Below, piece after piece: positions 1 through 3,000 of a stretch of 64,000 nucleotides of DNA. The DNA is from Escherichia coli (lineage in GTDB: Bacteria > Pseudomonadota > Gammaproteobacteria > Enterobacterales > Enterobacteriaceae). Position numbers: made by a program. The stretch is taken from the NCBI RefSeq assembly GCF_050920415.1, contig NZ_CP169310.1; one strand, given 5' to 3'. Each line of letters opens with the position of its first letter. Within the stretch, counting starts at the first letter, position 1.

Positions 1-3000
1 GTTTAAAGTCTTCAGAAACGTTCAGGAACTGTTTTGCCAGGTCGTCCTGCGAAATAAAGCCGTATGATAACGGGCGAACACTGCCCTGTTTCGGGTCTAC
101 CAGCATCATGGCCGGGAAATATTTCACGCCGAGGCGCTGCGCCTGCCCCTGGTCAGTCCGGGAATCCGGCAACAGCGGATTAATCACGCCATCCACGGAA
201 ACGGGAATAACACTCAGACCATACGTATCCCGGAAGCCATTAATGACCTGCGCCAGTTGCCCGTCGATGGGGTCCTGCCCACGGTAAAAAAACATGATGC
301 CGTAATGCTCTGCCAGTCTGGCAATGGCCTGTCGCTGCTGCGCCTGGTCTGCCGCCAGCTGGTTCCGTACCGTACCGTTGTAATGGCTGTACTGCAGGTT
401 ATAGTCCAGTTCGGGATGTGCCAGCATGGCCTTTCTGGCACTCATGGTGAAAAGCCCGGCCTGCTGAGTCCAGTAATTCTGCAGCCGGAAATATTTCACA
501 AAATTATCCACGCCGGGATACAGAATGGCTTCGTACAGCGCCCGCTTTGTTGCCGTCTGCAGCGCAGTCAGTTTCTGCATAATATCCGGCTCCTGACGGG
601 GAGCCGCAGGGACTGGTTTATTTTCTTTTTTCTTCGGATTTATTTTCTCGTTATACCACTGCCAGCCTGCATCTTTTCCTGACGCCGGAAAAATAAAGCA
701 GCAGAGTAACAGTGGCAGTAATGCTTTATTCATCTTCATTCCTTTCATCACTTTTTCTTTCATCAGGTTTCTGCAGGTCAGCCAGTGCAGAAAAACAAAA
801 ATACAGAATAAACAGGAGCTCACCGGAGTAAAGAATAACGAAAGCAGCAGCAAGTATCCCGCCCACCGTGGTTTCTTTTACCGTATTCCATGACCAGATA
901 ATTACCGGGGAAATGACAATTGCTGTAATAACAAGCCGGATAAGAAAATCAACAAGACGATTCGACGTGAATATGACTTTCATTATTTTCCCGACCTTAC
1001 TGCCCCACCTGTTTCAGCTGACCGGCAATCTGCTCTTTCACTTTTTCGGTCAGCGCACCATTATCCGGGATTTTCTGGTTATTCATCAGGTCTTCGTAGA
1101 AGTTAGTGAAGTCCAGCTGGTCGAACTTAATACGCTGCAGTTCATCCACGGTGATCCCCCGGCAGTCAGGACTTTTTGCGCTGCCAAAACCAATACGCAA
1201 CTGTCCGTTGCGCCCCTGCTGCTGGACTATCTGCGCCAGCTTCGAATCAAACTGGCAGTAACTGCGCTTTTTCTGCAGACAGACACCCAGCACTTTCCGG
1301 GAGCAGAACTCACCCACACTCACCGTCAGTTTGTTGTCCTTCGCCTTTCCCAGCGCCTTTTCTTCACTGTTACATTCAGCCAGCCCCACATCCTGCCCCC
1401 AGCCGCCATCCTTACAGCAGTTACTGAAGCCGGCTGCAGCCTTACGGCAGAATTTCGCCTCACCGGTAAAAGCCCGGACATCCACACCATTCAGGGCGGC
1501 AACATCCTTACCTGCGGCGGCAAGCGCAGCCAGTTGTGAGACGGCTTCACCAAAATCACTGCTTTTTCCGCTCTGCGCCTTATCACATTCACCATCGAGA
1601 CAGAAGACATCACCACCACAAACCATCACTTTCCCGGATGTTCTGGACTCGCAGGAGTACGTGGCATACTCATGCAGACAGGCTCCCTCATCGGAATAAA
1701 ACGCGCACTGACGTGAGGCCAGCGTACAGGCCGGATTATCAACATATTTCTGACAGGTGCCGTTATCTGCCGACTGCGTGACATATTTATCCCGGTATGC
1801 CCAGCACGCCTGTGTGATGCTCCAGGGTTTACCTTCCATCACACCTGTTTTCGTACCACCCGGCTCTGAACACTCAGTGCCTTTCAGCACGCCATCCGCT
1901 TTATTAAACGGACAACTCTCCACCCACTCCACTCGTGGAACCCATTCTTTATCACGGACCTTCATCCTGAGTTTCAGCGTAAAGGTGGAGGCGCCGCTGG
2001 CCAGTTTCTCATAAACCTGTTGGTCACCGTTCCCGCCAGAAAGGCAGTTACCGTTAGCAGTACAGCCACTGCCGGTCAGTACCTGCCCCTGTGTCACCTG
2101 CAAACCTGTTGCCCCGGACAGAGGGAAAGTCCCCGACTGCCCGTTTGCCAGGCCAACATTGAACGTTGAATTCATGAAGGTATAACGAGAGTTCAGGAAG
2201 AAAAAAGCGGCGTATACAGACAATGATGCACTTTCCACTGTACCGGTTACCGGAGCCGTGACACTGAACGCCAGTTTCAGCCCGTTCATACTGAACCGGA
2301 ACTGTGAGTGCGGTATCGTCACCTCACGATATTCATCCGTGTATTTCCAGTCCCCTGTGATACTGGCGGTTCTGGAACAATATTCCTCAACCATCGTATC
2401 CCGCTCACAGGTATAGTTGGTGAATTCACTGCGGTTTATCTGTTGCGCACTGCACTGCTGTCCGGTGTTTCCCACGATGCTGTCAGCCCGGTTCACCACA
2501 TCCCTGCCGGTCTGAATAAACGGCGCATCCGGTGACAGAATGTCTTTCGGCTTGTTCATGAAGGATTCTGTGATGGTTTTGCCGGTTTCACTGGTTGCCC
2601 ATTGTGTGGTGCCGTTATTTTTCAGACCGCCATCCCCGTCGGCAGTCACCCCACCGTAATACTGCGTCTCATCCGGGTTCGCGTTATACCCCGGGATACT
2701 CTCCTGCGGATTAAAATTCTGAATACTGCCAATACCCTGCCCCTGGATCTGACGGGCAAAATCGGAACCTGCCCGGTAATCACTGTTGCTGTCTGCAAAC
2801 ACAGAAAAGCTCAGAAAAAAAACAATTGCACAAATATTGCACGGTTTTCCGGAGTCATTAAAATTCAGAGACCTGAAAAAGGTATTTATATTTTCTTTCA
2901 TAATCTGAACCAAATGGAGAATGAAGTGATGTCATCTCAACTTCAGAACTGTGTTGATTGTGGTAAAGCATTAAGTCGAACAGCCACAACATGCGGGAAT

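What the first reader, a model, noticed from the sequence alone, without database searches (positions are those of the whole stretch)
997..2913. TraN with a divergent central domain (receptor-specificity region)
The N-terminal and C-terminal thirds of this TraN match F TraN as I recall it. The central region (roughly residues 170-330: ...ITGDWKYTDEYREVTIPHSQFRFSMNGLKLAFSVTAPVTGTVESASLSVYAAFFFLNSRYTF...) does not. The central TraN domain is the part known to determine which recipient outer-membrane protein is engaged during mating-pair stabilisation, so this variant may set recipient range.
Basis: partly seen in the sequence, partly recalled or inferred. Interest (0 to 1): 0.4.

Follow-up and report, generated by a model that had tools for sequence, protein, structure and literature searches.

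The report
Ordinary R100-type (OmpW-binding) TraN adhesin
This gene encodes the conjugation "mating-pair stabilisation" adhesin TraN in its common, already described R100-type (TraN-alpha) form, so its middle part differs from the F plasmid version and most likely binds OmpW rather than OmpA on recipient cells.

Summary
Window 997-2901 (-) is an intact 634-aa traN inside a complete F-like tra operon. Against F TraN its two flanking "base" parts are 88% and 83% identical, but the central tip (residues 176-325) is only 17% identical.

The tip is not new. It is 93% identical (140/151) to the tip of R100 TraN. That is the TraN-alpha1 type of Low et al. 2022, whose recipient receptor was shown experimentally to be OmpW.
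- The whole protein passes NCBI's R100-type TraN model and fails the F-type model.
- It carries the extra tip cysteine pair found in R100 and pSLT but not in the F, pKpQIL or pOZ172 references.
- Its predicted tip superimposes on the crystal structure of the pSLT TraN-alpha2 tip (TM 0.95, rmsd 1.2 Å).
- The identical gene is annotated as traN in five 215-225 kb Escherichia plasmids, and about 1,400 PLSDB plasmids carry a tip at least 90% identical.

What is left over is small: 11 tip substitutions against R100, six of them in residues 288-301, and an unusual 36-residue signal peptide that came with an inserted gene upstream. Both also occur in other plasmids.

Verdict: real feature, correctly interpreted, already known. 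Low interest.

The parts
997..2901 (-). traN coding sequence (634 aa plus stop; ATG at 2901; the mechanical ORF extends to a TTG at 2913)
   Evidence: ORF list. 100% DNA identity to annotated traN WP_000662057.1 in NZ_CP012500.1 and four other plasmids. NCBIfam NF009011 scores 1315 bits against a cut-off of 1063, and TIGR02750 scores 607 against 422.
2794..2901 (-). Atypical 36-residue signal peptide (MKENINTFFRSLNFNDSGKPCNICAIVFFLSFSVFA, followed by DSNSDY)
   Evidence: No similarity to the 18-residue leaders of F and R100. It lies in a low-GC stretch, 0.41. A near-identical leader occurs in cluster P0005, and TraN leaders vary widely between plasmids. That it is a signal peptide is inferred from its shape: a charged N-region, a hydrophobic core and VFA before the start of the conserved mature sequence.
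2377..2793 (-). N-terminal part of the conserved base domain (residues 37-175)
   Evidence: 88% identical to F, 93% to R100-type, 91% to pSLT.
1927..2376 (-). Variable tip domain (residues 176-325), TraN-alpha1 type, the predicted OmpW-binding beta-sandwich
   Evidence: Identity: 17% to F, 17% to pKpQIL, 29% to pOZ172/MV1, 46% to pSLT, 92.7% to R100-type. AlphaFold2 pLDDT is about 91-97 across most of the tip. Foldseek match to 8X7N_A: TM 0.95, rmsd 1.2 Å, E 3.8e-13. About 1,400 PLSDB plasmids carry a tip at least 90% identical.
2044..2064 (-). Tip cysteine pair C280/C286, shared with the alpha references only
   Evidence: Present in R100-type and pSLT TraN, absent from the F, pKpQIL and MV1 references. 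The other 22 mature cysteines are conserved in all five references.
1999..2040 (-). Small allelic patch in the tip (residues 288-301: SGGNGDQQVYEKLA, against PHGNGDRKVYESLV in R100)
   Evidence: 6 of the 11 tip substitutions against R100 fall here, with 18 nucleotide differences in one 60-nt bin. The p1068-KPC-type allele differs here by a single residue.
1000..1926 (-). C-terminal part of the base domain (residues 326-634), including the Pfam F_T4SS_TraN region (residues 340-584, nt 1150-1884)
   Evidence: Pfam PF06986, E 2.4e-78. 83% identical to F and 95.5% to R100-type.
726..983 (-). trbE, immediately downstream of traN (operon context)
   Evidence: NCBIfam NF010271 TrbE, 146 bits; RefSeq annotation.
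3513..4151 (-). trbC, upstream tra gene (operon context)
   Evidence: RefSeq annotation of the identical plasmid.

Best explanation
This is the traN gene of an F-like (MPF_F) conjugative plasmid, in its TraN-alpha1 (R100-1) form. TraN is a cysteine-rich outer-membrane protein of the donor cell. Its conserved base sits in the donor outer membrane. Its variable beta-sandwich tip (residues 176-325) projects outward and binds an outer-membrane protein of the recipient after pilus retraction. That stabilises the mating pair and raises transfer efficiency. For the alpha tip the receptor is OmpW, through a surface-to-surface contact. Plasmids with this tip should therefore transfer efficiently into E. 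coli and several other Enterobacteriaceae that display a compatible OmpW, and should not depend on OmpA as F does.

Shown here: gene identity, domain layout, tip type by sequence and by predicted fold, operon context and prevalence. Inferred from published work on R100-1 and pSLT TraN: the OmpW receptor and the host range.
For: - Intact 634-aa ORF lying between trbC and trbE in a complete tra operon.
- NCBIfam: the R100-type TraN equivalog NF009011 passes its cut-off (1315 > 1063). The F-type model NF009010 does not (932 < 1106). Pfam PF06986 matches at E 2.4e-78.
- Tip identity is 92.7% to the R100-type representative P0001. P0001 is 100% identical to R100's own TraN over residues 1-300 and 313/315 over the rest.
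- Whole-protein identity to P0001 is 93% over 96% of the length. This satisfies the >=90% similarity / >=75% length rule that Low et al. used to assign a TraN type.
- 24 mature cysteines, including the tip pair shared only with the alpha references.
- The predicted tip has high confidence and superimposes on the crystal structure of the pSLT alpha2 tip, 8X7N (TM 0.95, rmsd 1.2 Å). The 8X7N sequence printed matches the pSLT TraN row by eye, and its molecule name is the pSLT traN product name.
- Published experiments show OmpW dependence for R100-1 TraN, for a chimaera carrying the R100-1 variable N-terminal domain, and for a chimaera carrying the pSLT tip (PMC9246713; bioRxiv 10.1101/2023.02.09.527952).
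Against: No receptor assay exists for this exact allele. It differs from R100 TraN at 11 of 151 tip residues, six of them in one patch (288-301). The 2023 study shows that subtle alpha1/alpha2 differences change which OmpW orthologues are accepted. The signal peptide is unusual, and its function and the start codon are inferred only. The structural match is between a prediction and a crystal structure of the alpha2 tip, not alpha1.
Confidence: 0.9

Rival explanations
1. The tip is an undescribed TraN structural variant with a new recipient receptor, which is the novelty implied by calling it 'divergent'.
For: Only the comparison with F supports this: 17% tip identity.
Against: 93% tip identity to R100 TraN. 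It passes the R100-type NCBIfam equivalog. The tip fold equals the alpha2 crystal structure. About 1,400 plasmids carry a tip at least 90% identical.
Confidence: 0.03
2. It is an alpha1 sub-allele whose 11 tip substitutions, especially residues 288-301, shift which OmpW orthologues or species are accepted compared with R100-1, while OmpW stays the receptor.
For: The substitutions cluster in a short patch with 18 nucleotide changes in 60 nt. Alpha tips form a graded series from 93% down to 46% identity. A single OmpW residue (N142) discriminates alpha1 from alpha2.
Against: The same patch, with one residue different, is present in a tip allele 96.8% identical to this one. That allele falls in the 95-99% identity band, which holds 473 PLSDB plasmids from Klebsiella, Salmonella, Citrobacter and E. 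coli, so the patch is not peculiar to this plasmid. Outside the patch most codon differences in the tip are synonymous (13 synonymous, 5 non-synonymous). Whether the patch touches OmpW is unknown.
Confidence: 0.12
3. The gene is a decayed or non-functional copy, for example not exported because its native signal peptide was replaced.
For: The leader is unrelated to the F and R100 leaders and has no obvious Shine-Dalgarno sequence upstream. The R100 reference record itself carries an in-frame stop in traN.
Against: The reading frame is intact and all 24 mature cysteines are conserved. The leader keeps the shape of a signal peptide. The same arrangement is conserved in about 116 plasmids, and nearly all matching plasmids are typed as conjugative. 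TraN leaders differ widely between otherwise normal plasmids.
Confidence: 0.04

Closest known systems
TraN of R100 / R100-1 (TraN-alpha1; OmpW receptor; Low et al. 2022, PMC9246713)
   Same: Same domain layout. 93% identity in the N-terminal base, 92.7% in the tip and 95.5% in the C-terminal base. Same 24 mature cysteines, including the tip pair. Same NCBIfam equivalog.
   Different: 11 tip substitutions, six of them in residues 288-301. A completely different 36-residue signal peptide. An extra ORF (orf126) plus an antisense small ORF between trbC and traN, where R100 has trbC overlapping traN.
TraN of pSLT (TraN-alpha2; crystal structure of its tip, PDB 8X7N)
   Same: Same tip fold (TM 0.95, rmsd 1.2 Å against the model), the same tip cysteine pair, and a published OmpW receptor.
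   Different: Only 46% tip sequence identity, with two short deletions in pSLT (4 and 2 residues). Alpha2 accepts C. rodentium OmpW whereas alpha1 does not.
TraN of F (TraN-gamma; OmpA receptor)
   Same: Base domains are 83-88% identical, with the same 22 base cysteines and the same position in the tra operon.
   Different: The tip is unrelated in sequence (17%) and lacks the tip cysteine pair. The window protein fails the F-type NCBIfam cut-off. The receptor is different.
TraN of p1068-KPC-type IncFII plasmids (WP_015059015.1)
   Same: The closest common tip allele: 96.8% identical, and it shares the SGGNGD-QVYEKLA patch. It also has orf126-like DNA upstream.
   Different: An ordinary 18-residue leader, and an HNH endonuclease gene between orf126 and traN.

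Membership tests
TraN, type-F mating-pair stabilisation protein (Pfam PF06986 / TIGR02750) | Profile match above the curated threshold | tested here: met
   TIGR02750 scores 607 bits against a cut-off of 422. PF06986 matches at E 2.4e-78 over residues 340-584.
TraN, type-F mating-pair stabilisation protein (Pfam PF06986 / TIGR02750) | Cysteine-rich mature protein with the 22 conserved base cysteines | tested here: met
   All 22 are conserved with F, pSLT, pKpQIL, MV1 and R100-type.
TraN, type-F mating-pair stabilisation protein (Pfam PF06986 / TIGR02750) | Position in an MPF_F tra operon between trbC and trbE/traF | tested here: met
   The order trbC - (orf126) - traN - trbE - traF lies within a full traM...traD operon.
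TraN, type-F mating-pair stabilisation protein (Pfam PF06986 / TIGR02750) | Outer-membrane location and a role in mating-pair stabilisation | not testable with these tools
   Needs cell fractionation and liquid-mating assays.
TraN-alpha1 sequence type (R100-1) of Low et al. 2022 | >=90% amino-acid similarity to R100-1 TraN over >=75% of its length | tested here: met
   93% identity over 96% coverage to P0001, which equals R100 TraN. The rule is quoted.
TraN-alpha structural group | Tip structure superimposable on the R100-1 / pSLT tips | tested here: met
   AlphaFold2 tip pLDDT is about 91-97 across most of the tip. Against the 8X7N_A (pSLT tip) crystal structure: TM 0.95, rmsd 1.2 Å, 126 columns. 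The R100-1 tip model itself was not compared.
TraN-alpha structural group | Recipient OmpW dependence of conjugation | not testable with these tools
   Published for R100-1 TraN, for a chimaera with the R100-1 variable N-terminal domain and for a pSLT-tip chimaera. Not assayed for this allele.
TraN-gamma (F type, OmpA) | Tip similar to the F TraN tip / F-type equivalog model passed | tested here: not met
   17% tip identity. NF009010 scores 932 bits, below its cut-off of 1106.
TraN-beta (pKpQIL, OmpK36) and TraN-delta (MV1/pOZ172, OmpF) | Tip sequence similar to the reference tip (beta: with the inserted beta-hairpin) | tested here: not met
   17% (beta) and 29% (delta) tip identity. The pKpQIL-specific insertion is absent.

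The most novel reading that the evidence does not exclude
The window allele is an alpha1 sub-type whose clustered substitutions at residues 288-301 (plus A211, S245, G257, F259) retune the tip for a different set of OmpW orthologues than R100-1. It would be a natural example of fine-scale host-range tuning within one TraN structural class.
Probability: 0.1. Interest if true: 0.3.

Novelty: already known. Interest (0 to 1): 0.08.

Why it matters
It matters little beyond correct annotation. Typing the tip as TraN-alpha1 predicts that this large IncFIA/FIB plasmid uses OmpW for mating-pair stabilisation. It should therefore behave as a 'generalist' that transfers among E. coli, Klebsiella and Salmonella, not as an OmpA-dependent E. 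coli 'specialist' like F. This is useful for predicting plasmid spread but adds no new biology.

Tried and rejected
- **R100 reference.** The R100 record NC_002134 has no annotated traN in the PLSDB gene table, because it carries an in-frame TAA at codon 301. I used the 7,123-member cluster representative P0001 instead, after checking that it equals R100 on both sides of the stop.
- **Accessions.** AP001918 and AP000342 are not in the collections. The RefSeq versions were used.
- **Python access to loci.** Several loci fetched by accession (L002-L007) were not visible to the Python sandbox when needed. The alignment files were used instead.
- **Neighbouring ORFs.** orf126 (3136-3516) and the 120-aa ORF (4401-4763) gave nothing in NCBIfam, PHROGs or Pfam. 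The 72-aa antisense ORF (2929-3147) was searched in PHROGs only and gave just a marginal hit, E 0.006.
- **PDB coverage.** The PDB sequence search found only the alpha2 tip, 8X7N. No full-length TraN structure matched. The other Foldseek hits are generic jelly-roll/cupin folds with poor TM scores.
- **Klimke & Frost 1998.** This paper (F versus R100-1 traN genetics) is not held in the library. It is cited only through the reference list of PMC7690428 and from my own knowledge.
- **Lipoprotein signal.** I considered whether the leader (..KPCNIC..) is a lipoprotein signal. It has no L-[AS]-[GA]-C lipobox, so I rejected this by eye.

Full report
**1. The observation**

The window carries an open reading frame at 997..2913 on the minus strand, 638 codons from a TTG. 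The identical DNA is annotated in RefSeq as traN, starting at the ATG at 2901 (634 aa, WP_000662057.1). It occurs in five 215-225 kb plasmids of E. coli and Escherichia sp., for example pCFSAN004180G (NZ_CP012500.1), which is typed IncFIA/IncFIB.

The gene sits in a complete F-like transfer operon, in the order traM ... traU - trbC - orf126 - traN - trbE - traF ... traG-traT-traD. Window coordinate x corresponds to x + 60104 in that record.

The protein matches Pfam F_T4SS_TraN (PF06986, E 2.4e-78) and TIGR02750 (607 bits against a cut-off of 422).

**2. Comparison with F**

| Region of the window protein | Identity to F TraN |
|---|---|
| Signal peptide, residues 1-36 | 11% |
| N-terminal base, residues 37-175 | 87.8% |
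| Central tip, residues 176-325 | 17.3% |
| C-terminal base, residues 326-634 | 82.8% |

The stated refutation condition, near-identity of the centre to F, is not met.

**3. What the centre is**

F is simply the wrong yardstick. Aligned with the traN of R100, the nucleotide sequence is about 93% identical throughout, including the centre.

The R100 record has an in-frame TAA at codon 301, so its traN is not in the gene table. I therefore used protein P0001, the representative of a 7,123-member cluster. P0001 is 300/300 identical to R100 TraN before the stop and 313/315 after it.

| Reference TraN | Tip identity to the window |
|---|---|
| P0001 (R100 type, alpha1) | 92.7% |
| pSLT (alpha2) | 46% |
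| pOZ172 / MV1 (delta) | 29% |
| pKpQIL (beta) | 17% |
| F (gamma) | 17% |

Against P0001 the base domains are 92.8% (N-terminal) and 95.5% (C-terminal) identical.

Three further lines agree:
- NCBI's curated R100-type model NF009011 is passed (1315 against 1063). The F-type model NF009010 is failed (932 against 1106).
- The mature protein has 24 cysteines. Twenty-two are conserved in all five references. The remaining pair, C280/C286 in the tip, is shared only with R100 and pSLT, the two alpha references.
- An AlphaFold2 model built on a 109-sequence alignment gives pLDDT of about 91-97 across most of the tip. Its only significant PDB match is 8X7N chain A (E 3.8e-13, TM 0.95 normalised to the target, rmsd 1.2 Å, 42% identity). 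8X7N is the crystal structure of a TraN surface domain. Its sequence matches the pSLT TraN tip by eye, and its authors treated it as OmpW-binding.

**4. What is known about this type**

Low et al. 2022 (PMC9246713) showed three things. The variable N-terminal or 'tip' domain of TraN determines which recipient outer-membrane protein is used for mating-pair stabilisation. R100-1 TraN and a chimaera carrying its variable N-terminal domain depend on OmpW. pSLT TraN has a superimposable tip, and a chimaera carrying the pSLT tip also depends on OmpW.

They named this structural group TraN-alpha. The other groups are beta (OmpK36), gamma (F, OmpA) and delta (OmpF). A sequence type was assigned at >=90% similarity over >=75% of the reference length. 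The window protein meets this for R100-1 (93% over 96%).

About 20% of 824 IncF plasmids in that study carried the R100-1 type. A follow-up (bioRxiv 10.1101/2023.02.09.527952) names R100-1 alpha1 and pSLT alpha2, and models the contact with OmpW as surface-to-surface. A 2026 paper restates the four IncF isotypes unchanged (PMC13104618).

That F and R100-1 TraN differ in their centres, and that this explains OmpA dependence, goes back to Klimke & Frost 1998. I could not read that paper here. It is listed in the references of PMC7690428, and the rest is my own knowledge.

**5. Prevalence**

A tblastn search of the 154-aa tip against PLSDB finds 2,252 plasmids.

| Tip identity to the window | Plasmids |
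|---|---|
| >=99% | 7 |
| 95-99% | 473 |
| 90-95% | 922 |
| 80-90% | 211 |
| 60-80% | 88 |
| <60% | 551 |

Hosts include Escherichia, Klebsiella, Salmonella, Shigella, Citrobacter and Enterobacter. This fits the published 'generalist' behaviour of alpha tips. Cluster representatives show a graded series of alpha-like tips from 93% down to about 45% identity.

**6. What is particular to this allele**

(a) It has eleven tip substitutions against R100: S176T, A211V, S245T, G257D, F259Y, S288P, G289H, Q294R, Q295K, K299S and A301V, written window residue first. Six lie within residues 288-301, just after the tip disulfide, where 18 of 60 nucleotides differ. The same patch, with one residue different, is found in the p1068-KPC-type allele, which is 96.8% identical in the tip. 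So this is ordinary allelic mosaicism. Elsewhere in the tip most codon differences are synonymous (13 synonymous, 5 non-synonymous).

(b) The signal peptide is 36 residues long and unrelated to the F and R100 leaders. It lies in a low-GC stretch. That stretch also holds a 126-aa ORF of unknown function on the tra strand (3136-3516) and a 72-aa ORF on the opposite strand (2929-3147). The whole arrangement recurs in about 116 PLSDB plasmids, and orf126 alone in several hundred. Among 120 TraN cluster representatives there are at least 30 different leaders. The trbC-traN junction is therefore a general recombination hot spot.

**7. Mechanism and confidence**

The most likely mechanism is as follows. 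TraN is exported to the donor outer membrane and anchored through its disulfide-rich base. After pilus retraction, its alpha-type tip binds OmpW on the recipient surface. That stabilises the mating pair and raises DNA-transfer efficiency.

Gene identity, domain architecture, tip class and context are shown here. The receptor and the host-range consequences are inferred from experiments on 93%-identical (alpha1) and structurally equivalent (alpha2) tips. Confidence is 0.9.

The rivals are a new receptor class (0.03), an inactive gene (0.04) and a sub-allele with a shifted OmpW-orthologue range (0.12). The evidence for and against each is given in the rival entries.

**8. Verdict**

It is nevertheless the common, experimentally characterised R100-type TraN, and the gene is already annotated as traN in public records. 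Novelty: already known. Interest: low.

Noticed in passing
window 2794-3516: The trbC-traN junction carries an insert with lower GC (about 0.41). It holds a 126-aa ORF of unknown function on the tra strand (3136-3516), a 72-aa ORF on the opposite strand (2929-3147) that looks by eye like a Cys-x2-Cys zinc ribbon plus a transmembrane segment, and a replaced 36-residue TraN signal peptide. orf126 has no Pfam, NCBIfam or PHROG match. The 72-aa ORF was searched in PHROGs only and gave a marginal hit. The full arrangement is in about 116 PLSDB plasmids, and orf126 alone in several hundred.
   Followed up: partly
window 4152-4972: An AT-rich gap (GC 0.35-0.41) between traU and trbC has no CDS in the PLSDB gene table of the identical plasmid. 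It contains a 120-aa ORF (4401-4763, minus strand) with no Pfam, NCBIfam or PHROG match. R100 and pSLT have a different small ORF at this position.
   Followed up: partly
L003 (NC_002134.1, plasmid R100) 5887-5889: The R100 reference record has an in-frame TAA in traN at codon 301 (GAA in the window and E in cluster P0001), so traN is missing from its gene table. Either the sequenced R100 carries a traN nonsense mutation or this is a sequencing error. It matters when R100 is used as the TraN-alpha1 reference.
   Followed up: partly
proteins P0001-P0120 (TraN cluster representatives): TraN signal peptides are very diverse between otherwise similar proteins: at least 30 distinct leaders of 15-36 residues. 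Some of the variation reflects different start-codon calls on the same leader.
   Followed up: partly
window 46621-47187: The identical plasmid annotates a YopT-type cysteine protease domain protein here. Two separate ParM partition systems lie at about 38155-39470 and 48560-49949, and several IS elements (IS110, IS66, IS421) lie between 19 and 35 kb.
   Followed up: no
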